64,000 bases of DNA from an uncultured Flavobacterium sp. (lineage in GTDB: Bacteria; Bacteroidota; Bacteroidia; Flavobacteriales; Flavobacteriaceae): positions 184,436-248,435 of the forward strand of contig CAUPJC010000001.1 of NCBI GenBank assembly GCA_963511475.1, read 5' to 3'. The first letter of the stretch is position 1; every line of letters begins with the position of its first letter. Shown here one piece after another: positions 4,504 to 64,000 of this stretch. A program made the translations under genes and the position numbers. The notes beneath the pieces are model-generated. The model saw nothing but the letters and a program-made list of their open reading frames with translations. It did not search any database and was not told the DNA's origin.

Positions 4504-4590
4504 TCCAAATTTTTAAATAAGGAGGGTTTCGTCTTCTAATTTATTTGGATGATAAGCGAACAATTTTTAGTAGATAATCAATATATTAAT

Positions 4591-5922: not shown

Positions 5923-6007
5923 AAATTTAATATTAATCGCTGTTTAAGTGATTGAAATTAAAGGATAGAACTAAAAAAAATTATTAAGATTAATATTTAT
6001 ATATAAT

Positions 6008-9070: not shown

Positions 9071-9106
9071 TACAAAAATTATTAATTAAGAATCAAATAA
9101 AGGATT

Positions 9107-11027: not shown

Positions 11028-11035
11028 TTGTAGAT

Positions 11036-11584: not shown

Positions 11585-11614
11585 TAATTGTTGAACAAAC
11601 TGATCGTAATAGAT

Positions 11615-12991: not shown

Positions 12992-13010
12992 TATTTAAAG
13001 AGATAAACAG

Positions 13011-14168: not shown

Positions 14169-14196
14169 TTATTAAGAAAATTTAAAGTATAAATAT

Positions 14197-15987: not shown

Positions 15988-16005
15988 AATTTCAAAAAAA
16001 TATAT

Positions 16006-16038
16006 AAATGCCTTTCATTAATGAGAGGCATTTTTTTT
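16006..16038 (+). terminator. Intrinsic terminator of the act-cox operon
   Basis: AAATGCCTTTCA / TGAGAGGCATTT stem followed by a T run. Confidence 0.88.
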
Positions 16039-16070
16039 ATTGCAATGATTACTTTTTTTATCTTTATCGA

Positions 16071-17093
16071 ATGAATGAGAATTTAGATCCTACGAATAAT
16101 AATTTTGGCGCGGAAGAACTTGATTTTGAGAAAAGATTAAGGCCATTATCTTTTGATGATTTTGCGGGTCAAGATCAGGTGTTGGACAATCTTAAAGTTT
16201 TTGTCGCAGCAGCTAATCAGCGTAATGAAGCTTTGGATCATACGCTTTTTCATGGGCCTCCAGGTTTAGGTAAAACTACATTGGCTAATATTTTAGCAAA
16301 TGAACTTGGAGTTGGAATCAAAATTACCTCTGGACCTGTTTTGGATAAACCGGGAGATTTAGCTGGATTGCTGACAAATCTTGAAGAGCGTGATGTGTTG
16401 TTTATAGATGAGATACACCGTTTAAGTCCGATAGTTGAGGAGTATTTATATTCAGCGATGGAGGATTTCAAGATAGACATCATGATTGAGTCGGGGCCTA
16501 ATGCAAGAACAGTACAAATTAATCTGAACCCTTTTACGCTTATTGGAGCTACAACACGATCTGGTCTTTTGACTGCTCCAATGCGGGCTCGTTTCGGTAT
16601 TTCTTCAAGACTTCAATATTATACAACAGAGCTTTTGACAACTATTGTAGAACGCAGCTCCATGATTTTCAAAATGCCTATCACGATGGAAGCAGCAATT
16701 GAAATTGCTGGCAGAAGCAGAGGAACTCCTCGTATTGCTAATGCTTTGTTACGACGCGTACGTGATTTTGCCCAAATCAAAGGTAACGGAAGTATTGATA
16801 TTGAAATAGCTCGATATGCCTTAAAAGCACTTAATGTTGATGCTCACGGTTTGGATGAGATGGATAATAAAATTCTAAATACCATCATCGATAAGTTCAA
16901 AGGGGGGCCTGTTGGTCTGTCAACTTTGGCAACTGCTGTTTCCGAAAGTAGTGAAACCATCGAAGAAGTTTATGAGCCGTTTTTAATTCAGGAAGGTTTT
17001 ATTATGCGAACGCCAAGAGGTCGTGAAGTAACTGAGAAAGCTTATAAACATTTAGGAAAAATTAAAGCCAATATTCAAGGAGGCTTGTTCTAA
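16071..17093 (+). CDS. ruvB: Holliday junction branch migration helicase RuvB
   Basis: [33 protein letters not shown]. Start set at MNENLD because the ORF-track start lies inside the terminator. Confidence 0.97.
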
Positions 17094-50527: not shown

Positions 50528-51523
50528 ATGTATACTAGAATAAGGTTAGTAATTGCTCTCTTTTTTATCAGTTTAAGTGCTTTTTCGCAGGAAGGAATAC
50601 CAGTATATTCAGATTATTTGTCAGATAATTATTATTTGATTTTCCCATCAATGGCAGGGGCTTCAAATTGCAGTAAATTAAGACTTACCGCAAGAAAACA
50701 ATGGTTTGACCAGGAAAATGCACCAGCCCTTCAAACCTTGAGCTATAATGGCAAAGTAGGAGAGAGATCGGGAGTAGGAGCCATACTTTTTAATGATGTA
50801 AACGGATATCATTCCCAATTTGGCTTCAAGGCTACTTATGCACATCATATTATGTTTTCAAGAGATGAAGTAGATTTGAATCAGTTGTCTTTTGGTGTTA
50901 ATGTTGGTGTTAATCAAAGTCAGTTAGACGAAACTGATTTTCAGAATTCTGGCGAATATGATCCGGCTTTGGGAAATATAGAACAGAATGCTTCTTATTT
51001 TAATTTAGATATTGGAGCATCATATAACCTTTTTGATTTTAGTTTGAATGCAGTTGTGAAAAATGTTTTAGAAACCCGTCAGACTCTTTATTCAGAATAT
51101 GAAAGCGATAATTTAAGAAAATTTATTATTAGCGGCGGTTATGTTTTTGGTAATCCTGATAAGGTTTTATGGGAGCCTTCTTTACTGTATCAATATGTAG
51201 ATAAAACCAAGGAGAGCTCATTGGATATGAATTTAAAAGTCTACAAAAGTTTAGAAATGGGGCAATTATGGGGAGGTTTGTCTTATAGAAATAGTTTTGA
51301 TGGTGCCGAATTCACAAATGGAGGAGGTACTAATAGCCAGAAACTGCAATATATTACTCCTATCGTTGGGTTTAATTATAAAAACTTTATGTTTGCTTAC
51401 ACTTATACTCATTTGTTAGGAGAAATACAGTACGGAAATTCAGGATTTCACCAGCTTACTTTAGGGTTTAACTTTTTATGCAGACCTAAAAAATACGAAT
51501 GTAACTGTCCTGCAGTTAATTAA
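50528..51523 (+). CDS. PorP/SprF family type IX secretion outer membrane protein
   Basis: Signal peptide, Y.DY...YYLI.P.MAG, R.QW...APA.QTLS, FAYTY, HQLTLGF. Confidence 0.85.
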   Translation: MYTRIRLVIALFFISLSAFSQEGIPVYSDYLSDNYYLIFPSMAGASNCSKLRLTARKQWFDQENAPALQTLSYNGKVGERSGVGAILFNDVNGYHSQFGFKATYAHHIMFSRDEVDLNQLSFGVNVGVNQSQLDETDFQNSGEYDPALGNIEQNASYFNLDIGASYNLFDFSLNAVVKNVLETRQTLYSEYESDNLRKFIISGGYVFGNPDKVLWEPSLLYQYVDKTKESSLDMNLKVYKSLEMGQLWGGLSYRNSFDGAEFTNGGGTNSQKLQYITPIVGFNYKNFMFAYTYTHLLGEIQYGNSGFHQLTLGFNFLCRPKKYECNCPAVN

Positions 51524-52071: not shown

Positions 52072-52785
52072 CTAAATATTTATTTTCTCAAAGAAAGAAG
52101 TTTTATAACTTTCACTAATTGGCAGTCTTTTATCAGTTATTAACACTTTGTTTTTTTGGATAGATTTTACATGTTTAATATTGATAATATAGGAACGGTG
52201 AATTCTTGCAAAACCTTTGGAAGATAACAAGTTTTCCAGTTTTATTAAACTTATCAGGGTTAATGTATACTTACTGTCTGTGGTGTATATTTTGACGTAG
52301 TCTTTTAATCCTTCGATAAATAAAATATCAGAAAAATTAATTTTTACATTTTCATATTCTGCACGTACAAACATAAAATCATGTTCAATTTCTGGAGCAT
52401 TTACTGTTTGATTTGGTGTCGGTATTCTTTTTGGAACAAAAATCTGCTGGGCACGCATTACCGCTTTTAAAAACCGGTTAAAAGGAATTGGCTTTACTAA
52501 ATAATCTACCGCGCCAAGGTTAAAACCTTCCACAGCATAATTAGAATAAGCAGTAGTAAATATAATTAATGGTTTTTTCTCGATAGCATTGATAAAATCA
52601 ATTCCGGAAAAATGTGGCATTTCGATATCTAAAAAGATTAAATCAATCTCAGACTGATTAATTATGGATATTGCATCAATAGCATTGGTAAAGGTAGTCA
52701 CCAGTTCGAGTGAATCTATTCTGCTAACAAATTCTACCAATAAATCTACTGCTAATGGCTCGTCGTCTATAATAACACATTTCAT
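52072..52785 (-). CDS. LytTR family response regulator
   Basis: Receiver IIDDEPLA / FLDIEMP / KP and LytTR FARIHRSYIIN. Confidence 0.96.
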   Translation of the reverse strand: MKCVIIDDEPLAVDLLVEFVSRIDSLELVTTFTNAIDAISIINQSEIDLIFLDIEMPHFSGIDFINAIEKKPLIIFTTAYSNYAVEGFNLGAVDYLVKPIPFNRFLKAVMRAQQIFVPKRIPTPNQTVNAPEIEHDFMFVRAEYENVKINFSDILFIEGLKDYVKIYTTDSKYTLTLISLIKLENLLSSKGFARIHRSYIINIKHVKSIQKNKVLITDKRLPISESYKTSFFEKINI

Positions 52786-52794
52786 ATTCCTTAA

Positions 52795-53910
52795 TTATGA
52801 TGTTGGTACAAATGTATTTCTTTGTGGCTGTATTTGATCTAACTGCAGAATCAAATGAGCGGTAAATTTCGAATCTGTTGATATCAGATTTAGCTGATGC
52901 CTGTTTGGATAAAGCAAAGCAAGTCTGTTTTTGATGTTTGCCAATCCAATTCCTGAATTTTCAGGGTCTTTTTTGTTGTTCTCGATTTTATTTTCAATCC
53001 AAAAAGAGAACCCATTTTCTTCAAGTGTTATTACAATTTTTACATAAGCAGTTCCTTTGTAATCGGTTCCATATTTGAATGCATTTTCTATAAACGAAAT
53101 TAGCAGCATGGGTTCTATATACCTGTCTTTGGTATTGCCATGGATGTTTATAGAGATATTTTCAATATTATTAAGTCTTAATTTTTGTAATTCAATATAG
53201 TTTTTAATGTAGTCAATTTCCTTTTCGAGCAAAACATATTTATTATCAGTTTCATAAAGCATGTACCGCATCATTTCGGACAAAGTAACGATGGCATCAG
53301 GCACGAGATCAGATTTTTTATGTGCTAAGGAGTAAATGCTGTTTAGCGAATTGAATAAAAAATGAGGATTTGTCTGTGTTCTCAAATAGTTTAATTCAGT
53401 TGCCGTTCTTTGGCTTTCAGCGATCAGTTTATTTTGCTGGTCATCATATAATTCTGATAGCGTTTTGATGATGGTACTGATGGCAATGATTAATACATAA
53501 AAGACTGATGGCACCATTTTAAAGAAAAACGACTGGTCTCTCTTGGGCATTCTGTGATTGATATTTTCATTGTATGGTATTCCAGGGAAATTTCCTCTAT
53601 TTTGGAATCTGATTTCTCTAAATTCCGGCATGAAAAATTCGTGCCTGATAAGCATGAAAATTATTATTAGAATCAGTAAGATGCTTATATAATAGGCATA
53701 TTTTTTTTGCAAAAGAAAATGAGTGATCAGATAAGTATAATTAAGATAAAAAAGAAATATTCCAGTTATCCATTGAATATAAAAGTCAGTACTGATGCGA
53801 AATGGACTTTCGTAAAACTGAATAAGGGAAATGCCAATAAAAAAACACCAAATGATAATATGAATCAGTATTTTATTGGAACCGTTATTTTTTATTGACG
53901 AGAAGTTCAT
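52795..53910 (-). CDS. LytS/YehU-type sensor histidine kinase
   Basis: Four TM segments, LRTQTNPHFLFNSLN, LLEKEI, FIENAFKYG, GIGLANIKNRL. Confidence 0.95.
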   Translation of the reverse strand: MNFSSIKNNGSNKILIHIIIWCFFIGISLIQFYESPFRISTDFYIQWITGIFLFYLNYTYLITHFLLQKKYAYYISILLILIIIFMLIRHEFFMPEFREIRFQNRGNFPGIPYNENINHRMPKRDQSFFFKMVPSVFYVLIIAISTIIKTLSELYDDQQNKLIAESQRTATELNYLRTQTNPHFLFNSLNSIYSLAHKKSDLVPDAIVTLSEMMRYMLYETDNKYVLLEKEIDYIKNYIELQKLRLNNIENISINIHGNTKDRYIEPMLLISFIENAFKYGTDYKGTAYVKIVITLEENGFSFWIENKIENNKKDPENSGIGLANIKNRLALLYPNRHQLNLISTDSKFTAHLILQLDQIQPQRNTFVPTS

Positions 53911-54276
53911 TTACATTTTTATTTTTAATAAAATTAAATCATTTTTGGTAATAGTCGGTGAATTATTAGAGTTCAATTTTTGGAGTACCAATTGTCCCAC
54001 AGCCATAGCTTCTTTTTCAGTTTTAAAACTTTTAAATTCGCTGATTACAGGTATAATAGTTTGTTTAATGATTGTTTTGTTATAGTTTTTAATTACATAT
54101 CCCCAGCCATTAGCTGTTTTAATGGATTGAATTTTTAAGTCTTGTTCTTTTCTGCAGAAAATAAACAGGACTAATCCAATTATAAATATAATCAGGCTTA
54201 AATTTAATATATATGACAAATTCCTCTGGGGTTTTTTCCAGAAGAATTTGTTGGAGGTATTAATTATCATCGTCAT
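53911..54276 (-). CDS. DUF4907-like small membrane-anchored protein
   Basis: One TM segment, then GWGY.I...IKQ..IP......F....A..VG.LV..KL. Start overlaps the Kelch gene end; stop abuts the kinase ATG. Confidence 0.75.
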   Translation of the reverse strand: MTMIINTSNKFFWKKPQRNLSYILNLSLIIFIIGLVLFIFCRKEQDLKIQSIKTANGWGYVIKNYNKTIIKQTIIPVISEFKSFKTEKEAMAVGQLVLQKLNSNNSPTITKNDLILLKIKM

Positions 54277-55258
54277 TTTGTTCCTCATTTGGTTTAAATT
54301 CCCATACGTCATCGAAGTAGGAAGTTCCTGATTTTCCTAAGGCGATAAAGCCTCTTTCGCCATTTATGGTAATCCCTATAGCATCAGATCTGCCTGATCC
54401 TTCTAAAGCTGTTTTAGAAGTCCAAATGTCTGTATTCGGATTGTACTCCCAAATGGTATTTCCGCTTGATCCGCAGGCAATATAACCCAAACCATTTATG
54501 GCAAAACTGGATGCATTGGCTCTTACAATGGAGTAGGTGTCATGATCGTCTTCGTCATCATCTAAATCTCTTTTTCTGGTCCAAACATCGGTATTTGGAT
54601 CAAATGCCCAAAAATCGACTTGATTGACACCGCTGTTTATCCCAGTCCCTAAATAGGCAATATCGTTAATCACAAATACAGTGGCATTTCTTCTTTTGTT
54701 ACCGCTAAAACCATTTACCTGTGTCCAGGTATTGTCTGTGTCATTATATTGGTAAAAATCTTTTAGATAATTACCATCGTATCCTGTTCCCAAAAAAGCT
54801 TTGCCTCCCACTTGAAAACCTACGGCACTGTAACGGGCTGTTCCTGCAAAATCTGCTTTTTGAGACCAAGTATTTGTGTTTGGACTGTATTGGTAAAAGT
54901 CTTTTAATTTATTGGTTCCGTCATAGCCGAGCCCAATATATCCTTTTCCGTTTAATTCAAAGCCACTTCCAGAACTTCTCGCAATCCCTGTGAAATCTGC
55001 TTTTTGTTCCCAATAGTCGCCCTCAGAATTGTAAGCCCATAAGTCTTTTAGGTACTCATCTCCTGTATAACCCGTTGTTACATAAGCAAAAGTGCCAATA
55101 ACAAAACTCGTCGCACTTGATCGGGCAGGACCATCAAATGCTGATTTTTTTATCCAGTTACCAAGTGTATCATCATCGTCATCATCATTATTGCATCCAA
55201 TGAAAATTAAGCTGATAAGTAATGTGGTAATAAATATACCTTTTTGTAAATGTTTCAT
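54260..55258 (-). CDS. Kelch-repeat (six-bladed propeller) surface lipoprotein
   Basis: Lipobox IFIGC followed by NNDDDDDD. Six repeats of about 48 aa of the form W..K..F.G..R......G. Confidence 0.88.
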   Translation of the reverse strand: MKHLQKGIFITTLLISLIFIGCNNDDDDDDTLGNWIKKSAFDGPARSSATSFVIGTFAYVTTGYTGDEYLKDLWAYNSEGDYWEQKADFTGIARSSGSGFELNGKGYIGLGYDGTNKLKDFYQYSPNTNTWSQKADFAGTARYSAVGFQVGGKAFLGTGYDGNYLKDFYQYNDTDNTWTQVNGFSGNKRRNATVFVINDIAYLGTGINSGVNQVDFWAFDPNTDVWTRKRDLDDDEDDHDTYSIVRANASSFAINGLGYIACGSSGNTIWEYNPNTDIWTSKTALEGSGRSDAIGITINGERGFIALGKSGTSYFDDVWEFKPNEEQNDDDN

Positions 55259-55274
55259 AATGTGCATGTGTTTA

Positions 55275-56138
55275 TTAAAGTTTGTATTTGATGGTAATGG
55301 AAAAGACGCTTCCATTTTTTAAGGGCTTATTTATTTCTGCTGTTTTATTTTCATCCGAAAATTTGAATTCTTTATTGGCCGAATACCCTCCTCTGAAATT
55401 AACAAACCAAGAGGTGTCAATGTTCCTTTCGTATTGTAATGTTGTTTCCATTTGCGAAAAGCCAACTTTCGTTATAATGCTTTTATCATCTGCGATAATG
55501 GAAGGATTCAGATTGTAAATGCTTCCGCTAAAGTCATTACTAAGTCTGAATTTATCACGGATAGAACTGGCATAAGAAAGTTCAGAATTTGGGAATCCTA
55601 ATTTTAAATATGTTTTTTTACTTAACTGATGATTGATTGCGAAAGTTGGAAGTATCTGCGGTTTTCCAAAAACGGTCATTCTTTTTATTCCTAAATCAAT
55701 ACTGCTGTTTTTGTTTAGGGTCTGATTAATTTCTATTCCTCCCAAAATTGTTACATCACCAATACTGATTGTATTTTGAAAATTAACAATCGGTTCGAAG
55801 GTTAAATTCAATTTTGTGTTTTTAGAAAACGGATGTGAAAACTCAAAAGCATTGTTAAAACTATTAAAATGTGTATTGTTGTAATTTGAGTTATAATCTG
55901 CTAACAGATAAGTTTCTATTTCATCAGTAATTGTTGTGCTTTTATATTTAAATGTATTTGTCAATTTATTGGCAGTACTGATGTCTTTAAAGAATTGCAT
56001 TCCAATTTCAGTTTGTTTTATAGAACCGTTATCTATTGGTTCTGTTTTAGTATTAAATTCAAAAGCGTATCCATTTTGTGCATAAACACTAAATAGCGGG
56101 ATTAGAATCAGTATCGCAGTAAAGTTGTGTATTCTCAT
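55275..56138 (-). CDS. Small outer membrane beta-barrel (DUF6268-like)
   Basis: Signal peptide AYA/VYA, alternating hydrophobic strands, LGFPNSELSY, terminal strand SVFSITIKYKL. Confidence 0.65.
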   Translation of the reverse strand: MRIHNFTAILILIPLFSVYAQNGYAFEFNTKTEPIDNGSIKQTEIGMQFFKDISTANKLTNTFKYKSTTITDEIETYLLADYNSNYNNTHFNSFNNAFEFSHPFSKNTKLNLTFEPIVNFQNTISIGDVTILGGIEINQTLNKNSSIDLGIKRMTVFGKPQILPTFAINHQLSKKTYLKLGFPNSELSYASSIRDKFRLSNDFSGSIYNLNPSIIADDKSIITKVGFSQMETTLQYERNIDTSWFVNFRGGYSANKEFKFSDENKTAEINKPLKNGSVFSITIKYKL

Positions 56139-56154
56139 TATTTAATTATTGGTT

Positions 56155-56353
56155 CAAAAGTAGCTGTGTTGTTAATTAATAAAAAAGAATATATATGCAT
56201 TGCCTGTTTTCATAGACAAACTGGCTATTACTCATGCTGAATCTCTTTTTGAAACTGAATAGCAGAATGTAGACTGTTTTTTTGCTTTTATAGACAGATT
56301 GATCCAAGTGGTATATGTTATTAGGACTGCTGGACTGCGGACTTATATATTTG
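56155..56353. promoter_or_regulatory. Divergent promoter region with mirrored 21-bp-spaced repeats
   Basis: -7 elements TACTTTTG (minus, 56155-56162) and TATATTTG (plus, 56346-56353). Repeats TAGACTG/TAGACAG (plus, 56270 and 56291) and TAGCCAG/CAGGCAA (minus, 56227 and 56206). Confidence 0.55.
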
Positions 56354-56368
56354 CCCAAAAAAATAGGT

Positions 56369-57691
56369 ATGTACAAGTTTTTGTTTTTAATTTTTTCAGG
56401 ACTGCTGATTATTTCCTGCGATTCTGATGTTGATGCAGGAGAGTTTGTTGTAGGGTCAGATTATTTGGCTCTAAAAAATAAAGTGATTTTAATAGACACT
56501 CTTACTGTGGATGTTTCAACTGTAAAGCTTGACTCTTTAGTTACTTCAGGCGGAAGCAGAATATTGGTTGGGAATTATGATGATCCTCTTTTTGGCAAGG
56601 TGAAATCAGACAGTTATTTTCAGGTTTCTACATCTTCTTATAATCTTTACAGTCAAAATTCAGATACAGATGCAACAGGATATGTTTTTGATTCCATTGC
56701 AATGATTTTGCGGTATGACGATTATTATTATGCAGATACTACAAAGGTTCAGACTCTAAATATTCATCGGGTACTGAAGAATTTTAAGCCCAATGTAAAT
56801 GATGCTAGTTTTTATAATAATTCGAGTTTAGGATATGATGATACCAGTCTGGGGACTATAACATATGAACCAAAGCCATTAGGAAAGGACAGTATTAATA
56901 TAAAAATGGACAATCAGTTCGGTATAGAACTTTTTAACAAGTTTAAGAATAATGAAATCGAAAATGCAACAGATTTTACAGATTATTTAAAGGGTTTTGT
57001 ATTAAAACCGTCTTCCGTTTCATCTTCCAGTGTAATTGGTTTTAACTTGTCCAGCGTACTTCGTTTGTATTATTCAAAAGGGAAAGGAGATACTGGAGAT
57101 GTCTATGAAATGGATTTTACAATATCTGATACCAATAAACAGTTCAATGCAGTTTCATCTGACAGAACGGGAACTTTAATCCAAGACTTACCGTTGTCCA
57201 AAATGAGTTTGTCTAGTGTCTATACTGGTAATAAAGGGTTTATTCAATCGGGTGCAGGAATAGCCTGCAGGGTAGATTTTCCAAGTATCAAGCAATTAAA
57301 ATATCTTGCAGAAAAAGGAGCTATTGTAGACGCAAAGCTGATAATAAGACCTATCAAAAACTCATATTCGGAGATGTTTCCATTGCCCGAAAATCTAAGT
57401 GTTTATGTAGTCGATAAATTGAACCGGTATAAATCAACATTGACAAATTCTGAAGGTGAAACTGTGGTTGCCACTCTCAGTCAAACAGCTGATGAATTTG
57501 ATGAAAATGTTGCTTATGAATTGTCTTTAGGTTCTTTTCTGCAAAAAGAAATGCTAAAAGAATCAGATTCTAAAAGCGGTCTGCTTTTCACCTTTACCAA
57601 TTTGTCAAAAATTGTAGATAGGGTTGTTTTTGGAGATCAAACCGAAAAGGAGAATAAAATGAAATTACAAATTTATTATATAACATATTAA
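56369..57691 (+). CDS. DUF4270-like surface lipoprotein (BamH-family candidate)
   Basis: Lipobox IISC followed by acidic DSDVD; IDTLTV, G.Y.DP.FG.V.SDSYFQ, FDSI...L, KL.IYY C-terminus. Confidence 0.75.
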   Translation: MYKFLFLIFSGLLIISCDSDVDAGEFVVGSDYLALKNKVILIDTLTVDVSTVKLDSLVTSGGSRILVGNYDDPLFGKVKSDSYFQVSTSSYNLYSQNSDTDATGYVFDSIAMILRYDDYYYADTTKVQTLNIHRVLKNFKPNVNDASFYNNSSLGYDDTSLGTITYEPKPLGKDSINIKMDNQFGIELFNKFKNNEIENATDFTDYLKGFVLKPSSVSSSSVIGFNLSSVLRLYYSKGKGDTGDVYEMDFTISDTNKQFNAVSSDRTGTLIQDLPLSKMSLSSVYTGNKGFIQSGAGIACRVDFPSIKQLKYLAEKGAIVDAKLIIRPIKNSYSEMFPLPENLSVYVVDKLNRYKSTLTNSEGETVVATLSQTADEFDENVAYELSLGSFLQKEMLKESDSKSGLLFTFTNLSKIVDRVVFGDQTEKENKMKLQIYYITY

Positions 57692-58927
57692 ATGAAAGCA
57701 AGTTTGCAGTTTTTAGTTTTAGTGTTTCTTTCTTCTTGGTCATATTCACAAAGTATTGCTACATCGCCTTATTCTCTTTATGGATTAGGAAGTTTGTACG
57801 AATCCAATTTTGGATTGACAGCAGGTTTAGGTACTGCTGGAATAGCGCTCCCGTCTGATGATTTTATCAATAATAAAAATCCAGCTTCTTTAGTTAATAT
57901 TCCTGCTAATAATTTCTTTTTTGAGATTGGCGGTACTGGAATTCAATCCTCTTTTGAAGATAATAGCAAAAAAGAAAACCGGAATAATTTTCAGTTTTCT
58001 CATTTTGCTTTTGCTTTTCCAATTAATAAAAAATCGGCTTTTAGTTTAGCGTTGATGCCTTATTCAAGTTCTTCTTTTAAAATATCTGGATTAAAAATTC
58101 CAATAATAGACGGCAATAATGAATACTATTATTTGGATGTAATCGGGACTGGCGGACTGAATAATTTGGATTTGTCGTATGCCTATAAATTAAGCGATAA
58201 ATTATCTTTAGGTTTCTCTGCTTCAGTTCTTTTTGGGAACACTACAGACGAAAGAACTTATAGCATTGGCAATTCAATTACAAGTATAGATAAAAAAGTT
58301 AATTATAACGGTATTCGGCCTGGTTTAAGTTCGCAATTTAAAATGAACCAGTCTCTAACTTTTGGAATGAATGTAAAATCTCCAACCCGTGTAAATGCAT
58401 CCAAAATTCAGTCAGTTACGGTTTTAAATGATTCAGGCACATCTTCCTTAGAGACCGATGAAAGATCAGATACGGATGATTTTTATCTGCCTTTAAACAT
58501 CGGTCTTGGGGTCAATAAATCATTTAAGAATAAATTGAATGTTACTTTTGATTATGAAAAAAGTTTTTGGGACGCTACAAACCAATCTGATCTGTATGGT
58601 GATTTTGCTGATCAGGAAAAATTTTCATTTGGGTTTTCATACCAAAAAACAAAAATATCACGAAATTATTTTGATAGAATAAAGTATGTAGCTGGTCTGC
58701 ATTATGATACAGGCTATCTAGAAGTGGACAGCAAAAAAATAATTGATAAAAATTTTTCTGTAGGAGCTTCACTTCCTTTAGATCATTTATCCTCTGCTTT
58801 ATTTATTTCTTATACTTATGGAAGTAAAGGACAGGTAACTAACTTATTAATTCAGGAGAATTATCATAAATTGACATTGAATCTTAATTTAGACGGCGTT
58901 TGGTTTGTTCGAAGAAAAACAGAATAG
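57692..58927 (+). CDS. FadL/OmpP1-like outer membrane beta-barrel (BamG-family candidate)
   Basis: Signal peptide, SPYSLYGLG, NNKNPASL, G.GGLN, terminal WFVRRKTE. Start abuts the upstream stop (TAAATG). Confidence 0.75.
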   Translation: MKASLQFLVLVFLSSWSYSQSIATSPYSLYGLGSLYESNFGLTAGLGTAGIALPSDDFINNKNPASLVNIPANNFFFEIGGTGIQSSFEDNSKKENRNNFQFSHFAFAFPINKKSAFSLALMPYSSSSFKISGLKIPIIDGNNEYYYLDVIGTGGLNNLDLSYAYKLSDKLSLGFSASVLFGNTTDERTYSIGNSITSIDKKVNYNGIRPGLSSQFKMNQSLTFGMNVKSPTRVNASKIQSVTVLNDSGTSSLETDERSDTDDFYLPLNIGLGVNKSFKNKLNVTFDYEKSFWDATNQSDLYGDFADQEKFSFGFSYQKTKISRNYFDRIKYVAGLHYDTGYLEVDSKKIIDKNFSVGASLPLDHLSSALFISYTYGSKGQVTNLLIQENYHKLTLNLNLDGVWFVRRKTE

Positions 58928-58928
58928 T

Positions 58929-59705
58929 TTAAAAATTCTTTTCTTCGACTCTATATTTATTCTCTAAGATTTCGCTTAAAACTTTTGGATTGGTATTGGT
59001 AAAAAAAAGCGGATTTCTATTTTGAATACTCGAAAAACCTGTTTTTTCTCTGAGTATATTTTGCGTTTGCTTTGCCACTGCCTCACCCGAGTCAATAATC
59101 TGAATATGTTCAGGAAGAATTTTTTTTATCTGCGGAATTAAATAAGGGTAATGACTGCAGCCCAATACTAAATAATCAATGTTTGCTTCAATCATCGGAG
59201 TCAGGTAGGAATGCAGTAATTCAGTCATTTCAGGAGAATCGATTTTTCCGTCTTCGATCAATTGAACTAAGCCATGGCCTATCTGTTCGATGATTTTTGT
59301 ATCTTGAAACTTCTCGGTTGTTTTATTAAAAAGTTCACTGTTAAGCGTTCCTTTAGTAGCCAATATTCCTATTGTCTGAGTTTTAGAGTTTGTTGCTGCG
59401 GGCTTTATTGCTGGTTCTATGCCAATAAACGGAATGCTGTATTTTGCTCTTAATTCCTGAATAGCATTTGTTGTTGCAGTATTGCAGGCTACGACAATTA
59501 ATTTGCATCCCATTTCGATTAATAAATCCGTGTTTTTCATGCTTAGCGCAATGATTTCATTTTTTGATTTCTGTCCATAAGGAGCATTCTTGCTGTCTGC
59601 GAGATAAATGGTTTGTTCGTTAGGCAATAATTCATGAATGGCTTTCCAAATAGAGGTTCCTCCTATTCCAGAGTCAAAAACACCAATAGGGTTGTCGTTT
59701 GTCAT
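58929..59705 (-). CDS. murI: Glutamate racemase
   Basis: IGVFDSGIGG, VVACNTAT, LVLGCSHYP. Confidence 0.97.
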   Translation of the reverse strand: MTNDNPIGVFDSGIGGTSIWKAIHELLPNEQTIYLADSKNAPYGQKSKNEIIALSMKNTDLLIEMGCKLIVVACNTATTNAIQELRAKYSIPFIGIEPAIKPAATNSKTQTIGILATKGTLNSELFNKTTEKFQDTKIIEQIGHGLVQLIEDGKIDSPEMTELLHSYLTPMIEANIDYLVLGCSHYPYLIPQIKKILPEHIQIIDSGEAVAKQTQNILREKTGFSSIQNRNPLFFTNTNPKVLSEILENKYRVEEKNF

Positions 59706-59878: not shown

Positions 59879-60379
59879 TTAAAAACCTAAATCTTTTTTT
59901 ACGTCAACAGTAATGTTTGTTCCGTCAGCAAGTAAAAGAGTAGAACTGTCAAGTACATATTGGAATCCTTTTGCTTTACCAATTTTTGAAATAGAAGCTT
60001 TCACTTTTTCCATAATTGGTTTCATGATTTCAGATTCTTTATTTTGTAATTCTTTTTGAGCATTGTCTCTAAAGTCTACAATTCTTTTTTGCATATCCTG
60101 AACTTCTTTTTGACGTTCTTGATTTACAGCTTCAGTAACAGTTGCAGATTCAGCTTCGTATTTCTTTAATTTTGCTTGGTACTCTTCAACCATTTTTTTG
60201 TAGTCAGTGTCATAAGTTGTACCTAGTGTTTGTAATTGCTTGTTAGCATCTAATATAGCAGGCATTTTACCCATAATATCAGCTACATCAACATGAGCCA
60301 CTTTAGTTTGAGCGTTTGAAATTTGTGTAGCTCCTATAAATAGTATTGCAGCAATTAGTAAAGTTTTGAATTGTTTCAT
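59879..60379 (-). CDS. skp: OmpH/Skp periplasmic chaperone
   Basis: Signal peptide, KVAHVD, coiled coil, GFQYVLD...LL.ADG.NIT.DV. Confidence 0.93.
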   Translation of the reverse strand: MKQFKTLLIAAILFIGATQISNAQTKVAHVDVADIMGKMPAILDANKQLQTLGTTYDTDYKKMVEEYQAKLKKYEAESATVTEAVNQERQKEVQDMQKRIVDFRDNAQKELQNKESEIMKPIMEKVKASISKIGKAKGFQYVLDSSTLLLADGTNITVDVKKDLGF

Positions 60380-60422
60380 TGTGATAAAAATATTTAGTAA
60401 TTAATTAGTATTTATGTTCTTT

Positions 60423-61424
60423 TTATTTTACTTCATTTGCTTTTTTAAGCGCTTCTTTCTCTTGTATTTCTTTTAATCTTTTTTCTTCGAGTGCTTTTTT
60501 GTTAGCTTCTCTTTCTTCTAAGATTTTTTTTCTTTTTTCCTCTAAGGCTTTCTTGCGTTCCTCTTGGGCACTCGGTTTAACTTCTTCAGCTGCAGTTTTA
60601 GCAGTTTCTGAATTTACAGATGGAGCAGCTGTTTGTGTTTCTGTGTTTGACGGAGCAACAACTGTGCCATTCTTTTTTGCTTCTCTTTCAGCTAACAGCT
60701 GTTTTCTTTTTTCCTCGTATTTTTTTTTAGCCTCTTCTTGAGCTACTTTTTTATCAGCAACTAATTTTTCTCGTGCAGTTTGTTTGTCTAATAAAGCTTT
60801 TTCTCTTGCAGCTAGTTCAGGATTTTCATCTATTGCATCCTCTTTTTCTTCTTTAGCCTGTTCTTCTTTTAACTGTTTCTTTGTTAGCTGTTCTCTTTTT
60901 TCGGTTCGGTTTAATACTCGAATTACCTGATCACTGATGTCAAATCTTTTTGCTGCAAAAAGTATTGTCAAGTCTGAAGATTTGTCAAATATAAAATCGT
61001 ATTTCTTAGCTTCAGCAATATCCTGCACAGCTGTGAAAACTTGATCTTGAATAGGTTTTACCAAACCTGCTTTATATATCATCAGATCACCATTTGGCCC
61101 AAATCTTTTTTGCTGGTAATCTAATTTTTCTGTTTCAAGAAATTTTATTTCCGTTTCTCTCTCTTCAATCAATTCGGACGTCAATAAAGGTCTCTCAGCT
61201 TTTAAGGCCTCAGTTAGTTTATTGATTTCTATTTTTTTTGCTTCAATTTCCTGCTTCCATTTCTGGGCTTTTTGTTCCAGCTGTGCTTTAGCATCGGTAT
61301 AGTTGGGTACATTTTCTAATATGTATTCCATGTCAATGTAACCTACTTTATTTCCTCTGGTTTGTGCGTTAATTGCTGTTGAAACAATTGCGGATAAAAT
61401 TATAAATAAAAATTCTTTTCTCAT
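60423..61424 (-). CDS. OmpH/Skp chaperone with long charged C-terminal extension
   Basis: KVGYIDMEYIL...YDFIFDKS...DISDQV domain, followed by a Lys/Glu/Ala-rich tail of about 160 aa. Confidence 0.9.
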   Translation of the reverse strand: MRKEFLFIILSAIVSTAINAQTRGNKVGYIDMEYILENVPNYTDAKAQLEQKAQKWKQEIEAKKIEINKLTEALKAERPLLTSELIEERETEIKFLETEKLDYQQKRFGPNGDLMIYKAGLVKPIQDQVFTAVQDIAEAKKYDFIFDKSSDLTILFAAKRFDISDQVIRVLNRTEKREQLTKKQLKEEQAKEEKEDAIDENPELAAREKALLDKQTAREKLVADKKVAQEEAKKKYEEKRKQLLAEREAKKNGTVVAPSNTETQTAAPSVNSETAKTAAEEVKPSAQEERKKALEEKRKKILEEREANKKALEEKRLKEIQEKEALKKANEVK

Positions 61425-61459
61425 AATTTTTAATTTTAGAAATTTCAAACCAAATTTAC

Positions 61460-64000
61460 TTAAAATTGTTGGCCTATTATGAAATGCGTTTGCCAGCCAC
61501 TAGGCGTGACAGAGCCGTCAACAGGGTCAAATCCATAACCAAAGTCAATACCTAATAATCCAAATGCAGGCATGAATACTCTTAATCCAACTCCTGATGA
61601 TCTAGCTAAATTGAATGGCTGATAATCTGATAATGTTTTATAAGATTGTCCAGCTTCTGCAAAAGCCAAAGCATAAATAGAAGCTGATGCTTTCAATGTA
61701 ATAGGATAACGCAATTCTAATGAGAATTTATTGTAAATTGTTGCACCATATGCGTCTCCATTGCCGTCTGCTGGTGTTAAAGATGCATTTTCGTAACCTC
61801 TCAATCCTATGTTTTGTCTTCCGTCGATAGAACTTCCAGCCATACCATCTCCTCCTAAGTAGTATCTTTCAAAAGGAATAACGCCTCGGTCTTGATTGTA
61901 TGCTCCTAAAAATCCAAACTGCACTAAACTACGTAATACTAACTTTTTATATAAAGTAGTAAACCAGTCTCCAGTAAATTGAACCTTATAGTATTCCAGC
62001 CATTTGTATTTTTCCTGATCTACTTTTCCAGGATCGGCAACGGCATCTTGATAATTGCCTGGTTCTACTTTATTTGCTATAGTTCCGGACGAAGGCAGTT
62101 TGTCTAAATAATCACCAGAATTTACCACTTTATCATTATTATCTACATAAGAATTACCAGAGTAAATATACTTGTATTTTTTTTGATCGCCTAATGTTGC
62201 ATAATCGATTCCATTAAATAATGAATATGGAAGTGTGAATTCACCAGTTATTCCAAATTCAGCACCATACGTTGGGAATATTGGATTTAGTCCTTTGTTG
62301 TTACGTGTTAAACCAATATTGTAAGATAAATTTTTAGAACTTCCATTTGCAAATGTAAATAATCCATAATAGTAATTATGCAAATCGTATTGCTGGAATC
62401 TAAGCGATTGCGAAAGAGTGAAAAAATCATCTGGAACTGTAAGCCTTTTTGCTATACCTACAGATAATGACAAAATGTTAATGTATTTCGATTTATCAAT
62501 TCTTTGCGTTTGATAGTTAGAGCTGTATTGTTGGCTAAAAGCAAATGAACTGCTAAATGAAACTGGTTTTTTTCCTCCAAACCAAGGTTCTGAGAAAGAT
62601 AAACTGTAGGTTTTGTAATAGGAACTAGCCTGTAAACGCAATGCTACTTTTTGTCCGTCTCCCATTGGAAGAGGATGGTAGGCGTCTTTATTGAATATGT
62701 TTCTAGTTGAAAAGTTATTGAAAGACAATCCCAAAGTTCCTACGAAACCGCCTCCGCCATATCCTCCTTGTAGTTCTATCTGGCTAGCGCCTTTTTCTAC
62801 AACATTGTATTCAATATCGACTGTACCTGCACCAGAATCAACATTTTTGAATTTAGGCTCTATTTTTTCAGGGTCAAAAAAGCCTAATTGACCAATTTCT
62901 CGAATAGTTCTTACTAATTCTGCTTTATTGTATTTTTCTCCTGGTTTTGTTCTTAGCTCTCGATAAATAACTTCATCATTAGTCTTATCATTTCCAACTA
63001 CTGTAATTTTGTTAAAATAAGCAATTGGGCCTTCAGTAATTCGGATCTCAAAATCGATTTTATTATCAGTAGTTTTGGTTTCTACAGCATTGATATTAGA
63101 GAATAAATATCCGGTGTTTTGATATAAATTGGTCATGTCCTCACCGTCTGGTTTTGACTTGTCTGCTATTCTTTCCTGCAATAGTACTCCATTATATACA
63201 TCTCCTGTATTAATACCAAGCATGCTTCTTAAGCCTTCATCGGAATATACTGTATTGCCAATAAATTTAATATTGCCAAAATAATATTTAAGTCCTTCTT
63301 CGACTTTGATTTTAATGTAAATTGCATTTTTTTCTTCATTATAAGCCACAGAGTCACTTATAATACGTGCATCACGATACCCTATTTTTTTATAGTCATT
63401 AACTATTTTTTCTAAGTCTTCTTGGTATTTATCTTCAATGTACTTTGAACGCTTTAATATGTTAATTGGGTTTTTAACTTTTGTGTTTTTCATTGAACTC
63501 AAAAGTTTTTTGCTTGGAATTTCTTTATTCCCTTCAAAATCAATGTTGTATATTTTTATTTTTTCACCAACATCTACTTTTACAAGCATGTTTACCTGAT
63601 TGCTTGTTAAGGTATCTTTTTTTGTTGTTATGTAAACTTTTGCATTGAAAAAACCATCTTTCTTGTATTTTTTTTCAATGTAATTTTTGGTAGTTGTAAT
63701 TAAATTTTCGGTTACAATCTTACCGTTAGTAAGACCATTATCTTTAATAAAGGTTTCGGTTTTGCTTTTAGACACACCAACGAATTTTACTTCATTTATT
63801 TTAGGTAATTCTTTGATATTTAAGTCCAGAAAGATGCTGTCATTTTCTATTCTGTTTATGTAAAATGAAATCTCATCAAAAAGACCAAGCTTACCTAGTT
63901 TTTTTATAGAACTGCTGATTTGCTCGCCAGGAATTGTAATTTCCTGTCCTTTCTCTAAGCCGGCAAATGTAACAACGGTCTGCGGATTGAAACTAATTTC
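61460..64000 (-). CDS. bamA: Outer membrane protein assembly factor BamA (5' end outside window)
   Basis: POTRA repeats, GGYGGGG first strand, LRGY loop motif, terminal THFIIGQQF. The frame is open to the window edge (EISFNPQTVV...). Confidence 0.96.
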   Translation of the reverse strand, partial: EISFNPQTVVTFAGLEKGQEITIPGEQISSSIKKLGKLGLFDEISFYINRIENDSIFLDLNIKELPKINEVKFVGVSKSKTETFIKDNGLTNGKIVTENLITTTKNYIEKKYKKDGFFNAKVYITTKKDTLTSNQVNMLVKVDVGEKIKIYNIDFEGNKEIPSKKLLSSMKNTKVKNPINILKRSKYIEDKYQEDLEKIVNDYKKIGYRDARIISDSVAYNEEKNAIYIKIKVEEGLKYYFGNIKFIGNTVYSDEGLRSMLGINTGDVYNGVLLQERIADKSKPDGEDMTNLYQNTGYLFSNINAVETKTTDNKIDFEIRITEGPIAYFNKITVVGNDKTNDEVIYRELRTKPGEKYNKAELVRTIREIGQLGFFDPEKIEPKFKNVDSGAGTVDIEYNVVEKGASQIELQGGYGGGGFVGTLGLSFNNFSTRNIFNKDAYHPLPMGDGQKVALRLQASSYYKTYSLSFSEPWFGGKKPVSFSSSFAFSQQYSSNYQTQRIDKSKYINILSLSVGIAKRLTVPDDFFTLSQSLRFQQYDLHNYYYGLFTFANGSSKNLSYNIGLTRNNKGLNPIFPTYGAEFGITGEFTLPYSLFNGIDYATLGDQKKYKYIYSGNSYVDNNDKVVNSGDYLDKLPSSGTIANKVEPGNYQDAVADPGKVDQEKYKWLEYYKVQFTGDWFTTLYKKLVLRSLVQFGFLGAYNQDRGVIPFERYYLGGDGMAGSSIDGRQNIGLRGYENASLTPADGNGDAYGATIYNKFSLELRYPITLKASASIYALAFAEAGQSYKTLSDYQPFNLARSSGVGLRVFMPAFGLLGIDFGYGFDPVDGSVTPSGWQTHFIIGQQF

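What the first reader, a model, noticed from the sequence alone, without database searches (positions are those of the whole stretch)
56369..58927. Possible inducible second BamG/BamH canopy pair encoded next to bamA
Seen: a DUF4270-like lipoprotein and a FadL-like barrel (SPYSLYGLG start, WFVRRKTE end) lie one gene (murI) from skp-skp-bamA. Recalled, not verified here: the Flavobacterium BAM complex has extra subunits, a FadL-like barrel BamG and a surface lipoprotein BamH, and a paralogous pair exists. Inference: this pair may be a swap-in BAM canopy controlled by the adjacent two-component system, perhaps serving particular substrates such as the co-regulated barrel and Kelch protein. A signal-regulated BAM composition would be new.
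Basis: partly seen in the sequence, partly recalled or inferred. Interest (0 to 1): 0.7.

Follow-up and report, generated by a model that had tools for sequence, protein, structure and literature searches.

The report
Regulator-linked spare BamG/BamH gene pair
These two genes are this Flavobacterium's copy of the already published but functionally unexplained BamH2/BamG2 spare subunits of the outer-membrane protein-insertion machine. Across genera they always travel with a two-component regulator and a Kelch surface lipoprotein rather than with bamA, which suggests an experimental way to switch them on.

Summary
Window 56369-57691 encodes a surface lipoprotein of Pfam PF14092 (DUF4270, now named BamH). 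Window 57692-58927 encodes a FadL-like barrel that passes NCBIfam's BamG model. murI, two skp genes and bamA follow.

The pair is not new as such. Its position and order match F. johnsoniae bamH2 (Fjoh_1685) and bamG2 (Fjoh_1686), published in 2025 as silent, deletable paralogues of essential BamH and BamG. Predicted folds match the solved BamH and BamG chains best.

What I add concerns linkage:
- bamA adjacency holds only within the genus Flavobacterium.
- In 8 of 8 loci from other Flavobacteriaceae, the pair sits head-to-head with the operon (DUF6268 barrel)-Kelch lipoprotein-DUF4907-histidine kinase-LytTR regulator, in unrelated surroundings and without bamA.
- In 55 of 55 metagenome loci found through the Kelch gene, the pair is present.
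- The shared 230-bp promoter region holds conserved Bacteroidota -7 boxes and 21-bp-phased repeats in front of both promoters.

Control by the adjacent two-component system is therefore well supported by comparative evidence, but it is not demonstrated. Docking on BamA as a swap-in canopy remains untested. No usable RNA data were found.

The parts
56369..57691 (+). bamH2 orthologue: surface lipoprotein of the BamH family (PF14092/DUF4270), 440 aa. It has a 16-residue signal peptide and lipobox Cys17, followed by the acidic export signal DSDVDA.
   Evidence: Pfam E 2.9e-31. The start and lipobox are conserved in 13 of 13 orthologues. The AF2 model (pLDDT 63.6) has the BamH chains 9n2d_C, 9his_G and 9hjm_G as its top three PDB fold matches (E 3e-14 to 4e-12, TM about 0.5), and the next hit has E 7e-3. 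The NCBIfam BamH_fj model matches only residues 5-94, at 38 bits against a cut-off of 420.
57692..58927 (+). bamG2 orthologue: FadL-fold outer-membrane barrel of the BamG family, 411 aa. Its ATG abuts the bamH2 stop codon, so the two form an operon.
   Evidence: NCBIfam BamG scores 374.8 bits against a cut-off of 250. PDB sequence hits to BamG chains. The AF2 model (pLDDT 80.8) has 9hiv_F, 9n2d_B and 9hjm_F as its top three fold matches (TM 0.76-0.80), against about 0.6 for FadL/TodX. The N-terminal SPYSLYGLG and C-terminal WFVRRK align with the BamG termini.
56139..56368 (.). Shared divergent promoter region between the DUF6268 operon and bamH2-bamG2.
   Evidence: A 13-genome alignment shows conserved blocks in otherwise diverged DNA. 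This region holds 3 of the 7 phased motif pairs, and the only phased triple, in the whole 64-kb window.
56346..56353 (+). Candidate Bacteroidota -7 promoter box TATATTTG for bamH2, 15 nt before the ATG.
   Evidence: It matches TAnnTTTG at a fixed distance in 13 of 13 Flavobacterium loci. It is also present 25-32 nt before the ATG in L018, L019 and L022.
56155..56162 (-). Candidate -7 box for the DUF6268-Kelch-DUF4907-HK-RR operon (TACTTTTG on the minus strand).
   Evidence: Conserved in all 13 Flavobacterium loci, with variants in some such as CAAATGTA, CAAAATTA and CAAATCTA.
56269..56316 (+). Three 21-bp-phased repeats upstream of the bamH2 promoter: GTAGAC at 56269, ATAGAC at 56290 and GTATAT at 56311. 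These are candidate LytTR regulator sites.
   Evidence: The positions are conserved across Flavobacterium. L022, from another genus, has GTATAC at -81 and -60 from the bamH2 ATG. Phased pairs number 14 in 11 diverse regions, against 0.42 in shuffles (the motif was chosen post hoc).
56189..56217 (+). Second phased repeat pair, near the DUF6268-operon promoter: ATATAT at 56189/56191 and ATAGAC at 56212.
   Evidence: ATAGAC at -156/-158 is present in 12 of 13 Flavobacterium loci; L017 instead has ATAGAC at -172. A near-identical TTTTATAGACAAACTGA occurs in L021. L022 has GTATAC at -170 and -149.
55275..56138 (-). DUF6268 outer-membrane barrel with a signal peptide, the first gene of the divergent operon.
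   Evidence: Pfam PF19783 E 1.1e-12. It is present in most cassettes and absent in L018 and L105.
54260..55258 (-). Kelch beta-propeller lipoprotein. The lipobox Cys is followed by NNDDDDDD, a surface-export signal. This is the most conserved protein of the cassette.
   Evidence: Pfam Kelch families. Identity between genera is 48-51%, with a lipobox and acidic run in all sequences. There are weak mutarotase/NanM hits.
54216..54251 (-). Conserved RNA hairpin just after the Kelch stop codon, a candidate internal attenuator or stabiliser between the structural and regulatory genes.
   Evidence: Found by the terminator-like scan. It folds at -16 to -26 kcal/mol, against -9 to -14 for shuffles, in 9 loci. 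Both arms change between loci while pairing is kept, and L017 has an unrelated sequence at the same place.
53911..54276 (-). DUF4907 small lipoprotein or membrane-anchored periplasmic protein, abutting the kinase gene. It is a candidate accessory to the kinase.
   Evidence: Pfam PF16250 E 1.4e-21. The alignment shows a conserved GWGY..IKQ..IP core, with a lipobox or TM anchor at the N-terminus. The start codon is uncertain.
52795..53910 (-). Histidine kinase of the LytS/BtsS type (PF06580), with about four N-terminal membrane helices and no large periplasmic domain.
   Evidence: Pfam His_kinase E 3.4e-25. The topology is read from the sequence.
52072..52785 (-). Response regulator with a LytTR DNA-binding domain.
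   Evidence: Pfam Response_reg plus LytTR. The best NCBIfam matches are BtsR and LytR, both below cut-off.
58929..59705 (-). murI (glutamate racemase), convergent with bamG2, with stop codons 1 nt apart. Listed as context only.
   Evidence: Pfam Asp_Glu_race.
59879..64000 (-). skp, a long skp-like gene, and bamA (61460 onward, 5' end beyond the window). Listed as context; this adjacency is specific to the genus Flavobacterium.
   Evidence: Pfam OmpH twice. BamA has POTRA and Omp85 domains in the full contig. These genes are absent next to the pair in 8 of 8 other-genus loci and in L072 and L076.

Best explanation
The two genes are the orthologues of F. johnsoniae bamH2 and bamG2, a second and normally silent copy of the BamH surface lipoprotein and BamG barrel that extend the Bacteroidota BAM complex.

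They belong to a conserved seven-gene cassette. On one side is bamH2-bamG2. On the other, divergently transcribed, is DUF6268 barrel - Kelch surface lipoprotein - DUF4907 - histidine kinase - LytTR response regulator.

The most likely mechanism is as follows.
1. The membrane-embedded kinase, possibly with the DUF4907 protein, senses an envelope or surface cue.
2. It phosphorylates the LytTR regulator.
3. The regulator binds 21-bp-phased repeats in the shared 230-bp intergenic region and activates both promoters.
4. BamG2/BamH2 are therefore made together with the Kelch lipoprotein and the DUF6268 barrel.
5. BamG2 then probably takes the BamG position on BamA. It keeps the conserved N-terminal tail and C-terminus. 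It carries BamH2, a shorter canopy arm, to serve or partner the co-induced Kelch/DUF6268 proteins.

Shown here: identity, fold, orthology, the cassette linkage and the conserved promoter architecture.
Inferred: regulator binding, inducibility and BamA docking.
For: Identity:
- Pfam BamH/DUF4270, NCBIfam BamG above cut-off, and PDB sequence hits to BamG of three species.
- Fold searches put the solved BamH and BamG chains first, with a clear gap to the next hits.

Orthology to BamH2/G2:
- The paper gives bamA = Fjoh_1690, bamG2 = Fjoh_1686 and bamH2 = Fjoh_1685.
- The same order, bamH2-bamG2-murI-skp-skp-bamA, is found in the window and in all 11 of the 12 Flavobacterium genomes whose contig reaches that side, including F. 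anhuiense.
- The barrel scores 492 bits to the Flavobacterium G2 representative and 85 bits to FjBamG, and it clusters apart from BtBamG, PgBamG and FjBamG.
- F. johnsoniae, F. anhuiense and F. crocinum each also carry a separate 409-aa BamG.

Cassette:
- 8 of 8 loci from other genera keep RR-HK-DUF4907-Kelch(-DUF6268) head-to-head with the pair, in unrelated flanks and without bamA.
- 55 of 55 Kelch-seeded metagenome loci with enough flank have the pair, and 52 of 52 have HK and RR. Two loci (L072, L076) carry the cassette without either Flavobacterium flank.

Promoter region:
- The -7 boxes and sequence blocks are conserved.
- Phased repeats lie before both promoters, including four GTATAC copies at -170, -149, -81 and -60 in another genus.
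- The only phased triple in the 64-kb window lies here.
- LytTR regulators such as AgrA and BtsR/YehT bind direct repeats with a period of about 21 bp (my own knowledge).

Silence on rich medium and dispensability of BamG2/H2 (PMC12611786, PMC12578637) fit a conditional system.
Against: - There is no expression data. The RNA runs found were uninformative.
- The repeat motif was defined after looking at the data. It is not seen as phased pairs in three genera (L018-L020).
- The Flavobacterium loci are related to one another, so the counts overstate independence.
- In B. thetaiotaomicron, BamG2/H2 were not detected even in bamH mutants, and the double mutant behaved like the single one. The authors read this as evidence against an alternative BAM complex (PMC12578637).
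- The F. johnsoniae bamA Q801K suppressor does not act through bamH2 (PMC12611786).
- The cassette moves independently of bamA, which fits a BAM-independent module equally well.
- The BamH2 profile finds no BamH chain by sequence, and the BamH2 model is only moderately confident.
- I could not show a primary BamG/BamH in this particular organism. None lies in the window.
Confidence: 0.55

Rival explanations
1. Stand-alone surface module. BamG2/BamH2 do not join BAM. Together with the Kelch lipoprotein and the DUF6268 barrel they form their own regulator-controlled outer-membrane complex, for example one that captures or senses a hydrophobic or glycan ligand.
For: The cassette travels without bamA in 8 of 8 other genera. 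The barrel has a FadL fold. The Kelch protein has weak mutarotase/NanM similarity and is the most conserved member of the cassette. BamG2/H2 were never seen in BamA pull-downs (PMC12611786, PMC12578637), although they were not expressed under those conditions.
Against: The barrel keeps the BamG-specific N-terminal extension SPYSxYGxG. In solved BamG this extension fills the lateral opening used for transport and touches BamA (PMC12611786, PMC12578637). The barrel passes the BamG equivalog model. Its fold is closer to BamG (TM 0.76-0.80) than to the transporters (about 0.6).
Confidence: 0.3
2. Coincidental neighbours. The pair is a drifting spare copy with no dedicated control, and the two-component system regulates only its own operon.
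For: Within Flavobacterium the whole 20-kb region is collinear, so adjacency there proves little. No phenotype is known for deletions (papers).
Against: The head-to-head arrangement survives in unrelated genomic contexts in other genera. Both proteins are under clear purifying selection, with many invariant columns. Conserved phased repeats sit directly upstream of the bamH2 promoter.
Confidence: 0.08
3. This is the organism's only, essential BamG/BamH pair rather than a second one.
For: No other family member lies in the 64-kb window, and the rest of the genome was not available.
Against: The synteny matches bamH2/bamG2, not bamG (Fjoh_1412) or bamH (Fjoh_0823), which are unlinked genes. The barrel clusters apart from the characterised BamG subunits. 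Species carrying the same locus also have a separate 409-aa BamG. BamH2 fails the BamH_fj equivalog.
Confidence: 0.04

Closest known systems
F. johnsoniae BamH2 (Fjoh_1685) / BamG2 (Fjoh_1686), Liu et al., Nature 2025 (PMC12611786)
   Same: Same gene order and position (bamH2-bamG2, then murI, two skp genes and bamA), same families and same sizes. BamH2 is about 80 residues shorter than BamH. Reported as not appreciably expressed on rich medium and deletable.
   Different: A different Flavobacterium species. The barrel is about 55% identical to the F. anhuiense orthologue in L013. The paper's main text does not mention the two-component, Kelch, DUF4907 or DUF6268 neighbours.
F. johnsoniae BamG (Fjoh_1412, PDB 9N2D chain B) and BamH (Fjoh_0823, chain C)
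   Same: Same folds. The barrel shares the conserved N-terminal SPY..YG.G tail and the WF.K C-terminus. The lipoprotein shares the lipidated, acidic N-terminus, and its N-terminal ~90 residues are similar.
   Different: Only about 21% identity for the barrel, and BamH2 has no sequence-detectable match to the BamH chain. bamG and bamH are unlinked, essential and expressed, whereas this pair is operonic and regulator-linked. BamH carries a hairpin for BamM that BamH2 lacks (paper).
B. thetaiotaomicron BamG2/BamH2 (Bt1785-Bt1786), Silale et al., Nat Microbiol 2025 (PMC12578637)
   Same: An operonic second BamG/BamH pair with an extended BamG-type N-terminus. It was undetected in proteomes, is deletable, and is predicted to form a BamGH-like unit.
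   Different: Whether it belongs to the same clade, or has a LytTR/Kelch neighbourhood, could not be checked here.
LytS/BtsS-type kinase with LytTR regulator systems (E. coli BtsSR/YehUT, S. aureus LytSR, AgrCA)
   Same: A PF06580 kinase plus a receiver-LytTR regulator. Candidate direct repeats with a 21-bp period lie upstream of the target promoters.
   Different: The scores are below the equivalog cut-offs. The signal and targets are unknown, and binding has not been shown.
BtBamI, the beta-propeller surface lipoprotein that contacts BamH in the Bacteroides BAM dome
   Same: The cassette's Kelch protein is also a beta-propeller surface lipoprotein, and it is encoded next to a BamH-family gene.
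   Different: No sequence similarity was detected, since the Kelch protein hits only Kelch proteins in the PDB. No structural comparison was possible, so this is an analogy only.

Membership tests
BamG family (FadL-like BAM subunit of Bacteroidota) | Scores above the curated cut-off of the NCBIfam BamG equivalog NF053685. | tested here: met
   374.8 bits against a cut-off of 250, covering profile positions 2-397 of 397.
BamG family (FadL-like BAM subunit of Bacteroidota) | A FadL-type barrel whose fold is closer to solved BamG than to FadL/TodX transporters. | tested here: met
   The top three Foldseek hits are 9hiv_F, 9n2d_B and 9hjm_F, at TM 0.76-0.80. FadL, TodX and TbuX score 0.55-0.66. 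The model has pLDDT 80.8.
BamG family (FadL-like BAM subunit of Bacteroidota) | A conserved N-terminal extension (SPY..YG.G), which in BamG threads the lateral opening and touches BamA, and a conserved C-terminal tail. | tested here: met
   The sequence motifs align with Bt, Pg and Fj BamG and are invariant in the G2 clade. The threading itself was not modelled, because residues 1-34 have pLDDT below 50.
BamG family (FadL-like BAM subunit of Bacteroidota) | Physical association with BamA, and a requirement for BAM function. | not testable with these tools
   This needs pull-down, cryo-EM or depletion experiments. The published F. johnsoniae and B. thetaiotaomicron BamG2 are deletable.
Orthologue of the characterised essential BamG (Fjoh_1412 / Bt4367 clade) | Best similarity to, and clustering with, the characterised BamG subunits. 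| tested here: not met
   It scores 85 bits to FjBamG and 120 to BtBamG, against 492 bits to the Flavobacterium G2 representative. At least 150 50%-identity clusters score higher than either BamG. It falls in a separate clade of an NJ tree without bootstrap support.
BamH family (Pfam PF14092, formerly DUF4270) | Pfam model above the gathering threshold over its full length. | tested here: met
   109.6 bits against a cut-off of 27, covering profile positions 1-430 of 432. The collection's newer Pfam labels PF14092 'BamH'.
BamH family (Pfam PF14092, formerly DUF4270) | [quoted passage not shown] | tested here: met
   LIISC-DSDVDA, with an equivalent acidic signal after the Cys in all 13 orthologues. 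The rule is as stated in PMC12578637.
BamH family (Pfam PF14092, formerly DUF4270) | Fold like solved BamH. | tested here: met
   The top three Foldseek hits are the BamH chains of three species, at E 3e-14 to 4e-12. TM is only 0.49-0.53, and the model confidence is moderate at pLDDT 63.6.
Equivalog of F. johnsoniae BamH (NCBIfam NF053686 BamH_fj) | Score above the curated cut-off. | tested here: not met
   38.1 bits against a cut-off of 420, with only residues 5-94 matching. No BamH chain is found by sequence or by a 13-sequence profile.
BamH2/BamG2 paralogue pair (Liu 2025; Silale 2025) | Adjacent bamH2-bamG2 in one operon, located beside murI-skp-skp-bamA as Fjoh_1685-1690. | tested here: met
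   The gap between the two genes is 0 nt. The locus-tag order comes from the paper and its supplement. The same order is found in all 11 of the 12 Flavobacterium genomes whose contig reaches that side.
BamH2/BamG2 paralogue pair (Liu 2025; Silale 2025) | Coexists with a primary BamG/BamH elsewhere in the same genome. | tested here: inconclusive
Related species with this locus have two BamG-family proteins.
LytTR two-component regulon | A PF06580 kinase plus a receiver-LytTR regulator. | tested here: met
   with BtsR and LytR as the best NCBIfam matches.
LytTR two-component regulon | Direct repeats with a period of about 21 bp upstream of the controlled promoter, bound by the regulator. | tested here: inconclusive
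   Phased repeats are conserved and enriched. However, the motif was chosen post hoc, it is absent as phased pairs in three genera, and binding is untested.

The most novel reading that the evidence does not exclude
A signal-switched BAM. A dedicated LytTR two-component system turns on an alternative canopy set, made of BamG2, BamH2 and a Kelch propeller lipoprotein playing a BamI-like role, together with a small barrel. This would change the composition of the essential outer-membrane insertion machine on demand, either to assemble a dedicated client complex or to remodel the envelope under stress.
Probability: 0.3. Interest if true: 0.85.

Novelty: new member of a known kind. Interest (0 to 1): 0.58.

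Why it matters
Both 2025 structural papers on the Bacteroidota BAM complex reported a second BamG/BamH pair. Neither could say what it is for, because it is silent in culture and deleting it has no effect.

The pair is locked, across genera, to a LytTR two-component system, a Kelch surface lipoprotein, DUF4907 and usually a DUF6268 barrel, and it shares a promoter region with them. This gives a concrete handle: activate or over-express the regulator to switch the pair on, then test BamA binding, client dependence and complementation.

If the pair does dock on BamA, this would be the first case of regulated subunit exchange in a BAM machine. If it does not, it defines a new regulator-controlled surface module built from BAM-derived parts.

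Tried and rejected
- Sequence search of BamH2, alone and as a 13-sequence profile, against PDB chains found no BamH chain. Only the fold search linked them.
I redid it with database hits.
- RNA evidence did not work out. Runs for the window were DNA metagenomes. The RNA-labelled runs for F. anhuiense gave flat contig depth, including a 17-kb contig, which probably reflects DNA. The wastewater cDNA runs were not pursued.
- The Kelch-seeded scan returned only orthologues at 63% identity or more. It therefore could not test whether Kelch cassettes exist without the pair in distant lineages.
- P0394 (Neptunitalea) was not on record.
- An unbiased k-mer enumeration timed out. I replaced it with a hypothesis-driven phased-repeat count.
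- The sigma-70 promoter scan is not applicable to Bacteroidota and showed no enrichment.
- A LytTR system mutated in five of five F. johnsoniae lines co-evolved with Burkholderia (FJOH_RS09515/09520, PMC10197871) looked tempting. By locus-tag arithmetic it probably lies about 250 kb from the bamA locus. I could not map it, so I do not use it as evidence.
- Supplementary Table 3 of PMC12578637 is truncated, and it did not contain the marine genera.


Full report
**What is there.** The window comes from an uncultured freshwater Flavobacterium. Identical genes occur in Logan and JGI freshwater metagenome contigs, and the nearest genome is MAG CAUPKP01, whose barrel is 94% identical.

At the reported coordinates there are two abutting plus-strand genes. 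The first, 56369-57691, matches Pfam PF14092/DUF4270 over its full length (E 2.9e-31). The newer Pfam release used in the contig collection names this family 'BamH'.
- All 13 orthologues start with the same 16-residue signal peptide, ending in a lipobox Cys followed by acidic residues.
- A conserved Bacteroidota -7 box lies between the two candidate starts.

The second gene, 57692-58927, gets only a sub-threshold FadL/Toluene_X hit in Pfam. It does, however, match the BamG chains of the three solved Bacteroidota BAM complexes by sequence (E 1.2e-33 to 4.7e-23; 1e-46 to 1e-37 with a profile). It also passes NCBIfam's BamG equivalog model (374.8 bits against a cut-off of 250). murI, two skp genes and bamA follow on the minus strand.

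**Fold.**
- The barrel model has pLDDT 80.8. Its three best PDB fold matches are the three BamG chains (TM 0.76-0.80), ahead of FadL, TodX and TbuX at about 0.6.
- The lipoprotein model has pLDDT 63.6. Its three best matches are the three BamH chains (E 3e-14 to 4e-12, TM about 0.5). The next hit is the chondroitin-binding module that Liu et al. also noted for BamH.
- By sequence, BamH2 resembles F. johnsoniae BamH only in its first ~90 residues (NCBIfam BamH_fj, 38 bits against a cut-off of 420). This is the lipidated tail and first strands. According to both papers, this region is held by BamG and wedged against BamA.

**It is the published BamH2/BamG2.** Liu et al. (PMC12611786) name bamA Fjoh_1690, bamG Fjoh_1412 and bamH Fjoh_0823. 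Their strain table gives bamG2 = Fjoh_1686 and bamH2 = Fjoh_1685. That is exactly the order seen here: bamH2, bamG2, murI, skp, skp, bamA. The same order holds in all 11 of the 12 Flavobacterium genomes retrieved whose contig reaches that side, including F. anhuiense.

In a search of 1.8 billion representatives, the barrel scores 492 bits to the second Flavobacterium G2 lineage and 190-290 bits to a set of 30-38% identical proteins. At least 150 clusters score higher than either BtBamG (120 bits) or FjBamG (85 bits). In a rough NJ tree it sits apart from all three characterised BamG subunits. Silale et al.'s BLAST table shows that F. johnsoniae, F. anhuiense and F. crocinum each have two BamG-family proteins, a 409-aa type and a 411/412-aa type, while small-genome species have one.

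'Second pair' is therefore right for the genus. I could not see the primary pair of this particular organism, and none is in the window. Both papers report the second pair as not expressed in culture and freely deletable. Silale et al. (PMC12578637) saw no sign of an alternative complex.

**What the pair is really linked to.** Within Flavobacterium, the whole 20-kb region from mscS to bamA is collinear. Adjacency to bamA or to the two-component system therefore proves nothing on its own.

I built a profile from the 30-38% identical relatives, found members in other genera and fetched their contigs. I examined eight loci:
- Pustulibacterium marinum
- Salegentibacter sp. F14
- the complete genome CP047028
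- Flavobacteriales bacterium 33_180_T64
- four marine or other metagenome-derived contigs

In all eight, the BamH-like/BamG-like pair lies head-to-head with LytTR regulator - PF06580 kinase - DUF4907 - Kelch lipoprotein (- DUF6268 barrel). Everything else around it differs, and there is no murI, skp or bamA nearby. Small variations exist. DUF6268 is missing in two loci, the regulator is inverted in one, and the Kelch gene is broken in one.

I then seeded from the Kelch protein instead. It is 48-51% identical between genera, making it the best-conserved cassette member. Of the 80 metagenome loci returned:
- all 55 with enough flank had the pair;
- all 52 with enough flank on the other side had the kinase and regulator;
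- two (L072, L076) carried the whole cassette without either Flavobacterium flank.

The conserved unit is thus a seven-gene cassette, and bamA proximity is a genus-level accident or a secondary association. Neither BAM paper mentions two-component, LytTR or Kelch genes in its main text. No paper in the searchable library discusses DUF4907.

**The shared promoter region.** The five minus-strand genes are tightly packed, with gaps of 0-16 nt or overlaps, and so form one operon. bamH2 and bamG2 abut. The two operons diverge from a 230-bp region. Aligning that region across 13 Flavobacterium genomes shows the following conserved islands in otherwise diverged DNA:
- Both -7 boxes of the Bacteroidota type are conserved: TATATTTG 15 nt before the bamH2 ATG, and TACTTTTG on the other strand.
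- A TATAT(A/G)TT element lies 25-26 nt upstream of each -7 box.
- There are TAGA-type islands spaced 21 bp apart, at 56269/56290/56311 before bamH2 and at 56191/56212 towards the other promoter.

A locus from another genus (L022) has four copies of GTATAC at -170, -149, -81 and -60 from its bamH2 start, the same two-pair layout. Using the degenerate motif [AG]TA[GT]A[CT], phased pairs number 14 in 11 diverse regions, against 0.42 in shuffles. In the whole 64-kb window there are seven such pairs. Three of them, and the only triple, are in this region.

There are caveats. I chose the motif after seeing the data, the Flavobacterium loci are not independent, and three genera show no phased pairs. 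LytTR regulators such as AgrA and BtsR/YehT are known to bind direct repeats with about this period (my own knowledge), and the regulator's best NCBIfam match is BtsR.

**Mechanism proposed.** The kinase has about four membrane helices and only a ~40-residue external loop, read from the sequence. The adjacent DUF4907 protein is a small lipoprotein or membrane-anchored periplasmic protein and is a plausible co-sensor.

On activation, the regulator would bind the phased repeats and fire both promoters, producing two barrel-plus-surface-lipoprotein pairs together. BamG2 keeps the N-terminal SPYSxYGxG extension and the C-terminal tail, which in solved BamG plug the lateral opening and contact BamA and BamD (papers). 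I therefore think docking on BamA is more likely than transport. According to Liu et al., BamH2 lacks the hairpin that binds BamM. The co-induced Kelch propeller lipoprotein could be its partner, by analogy with the propeller lipoprotein BamI that contacts BamH in Bacteroides. It could equally be a client, together with DUF6268.

My rough probabilities are 0.95 for identity and orthology, 0.65 for co-regulation by the two-component system, and 0.45 for BamA docking.

**Rivals.**
- A BAM-independent surface module built from BAM-derived parts. Its main support is that the cassette moves independently of bamA and that there is no evidence for a BamG2/H2-containing BAM.
- Coincidental neighbourhood. 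The cross-genus linkage argues against this.
- This being the only BamG/BamH pair of the organism. Clade, synteny and related genomes all argue against this.

**Verdict.** The gene pair is an orthologue of a published, named but functionally unexplained pair, so it is a new member of a known kind. The useful product is a testable handle on why Bacteroidota keep a second BamG/BamH.

Noticed in passing
window 54216-54251 (minus strand), and the same position in L007, L009, L011-L013, L015-L017: A strong hairpin sits directly after the Kelch stop codon. Both arms change between loci while pairing is kept, and L017 has an unrelated sequence at the same place. In several loci it is followed by a T-rich run. 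It may be an internal attenuator that separates the structural genes (DUF6268, Kelch) from the regulatory genes (DUF4907, kinase, regulator). In the window it overlaps the 5' end of the longest DUF4907 reading frame, so the DUF4907 start is uncertain.
   Followed up: partly
L020 7429-8414 (complete genome CP047028, GCA_009796865.1): The Kelch gene of the cassette is split into three short ORFs (145, 139 and 73 aa), while the BamH-like, BamG-like, DUF4907, kinase and regulator genes look intact. This is a possible natural knock-out of the Kelch component.
   Followed up: no
L104 2410-4170 (GCA_027490305.1): The LytTR regulator gene is inverted relative to the kinase in this cassette. In L018 and L105 no DUF6268 gene is called, leaving a 310-bp gap instead.
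   Followed up: no
window 58925-58931: bamG2 and murI converge with their stop codons 1 nt apart. No terminator-like structure lies between them, so transcripts of either gene would run antisense into the other.
   Followed up: no
window 21909-29186 and 50528-51523: Type 9 secretion genes lie in the same window as bamA: a 2425-aa SprA (PF14349) and a PorP/SprF-family gene four genes upstream of the cassette. Liu et al. note that T9SS components are encoded at the bamA locus.
   Followed up: no
window 4549-17093: A respiratory gene cluster that looks like alternative complex III plus a haem-copper oxidase: multihaem cytochrome c, an Fe-S protein, NrfD and cytochrome oxidase subunit I. It is ordinary housekeeping context.
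   Followed up: no
L022 11313-14241: Two transposase genes (DDE_Tnp_1 and Transposase_mut) lie immediately downstream of the BamG-like gene in this metagenome contig. This is consistent with the cassette having moved.
   Followed up: no
F. johnsoniae FJOH_RS09515/09520 (literature, PMC10197871): A LytTR regulator and its kinase acquired mutations in all five F. johnsoniae lines co-evolved with Burkholderia thailandensis. By locus-tag arithmetic this is probably a different LytTR system from the one beside bamH2, but I could not map the tags.
   Followed up: partly
PMC12578637 Supplementary Table 3: Small-genome Flavobacterium species (F. ammoniigenes, F. acetivorans, F. crassostreae) show a single BamG-family hit, while larger genomes show two. 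The second pair, and presumably the cassette, is therefore not universal in the genus.
   Followed up: partly
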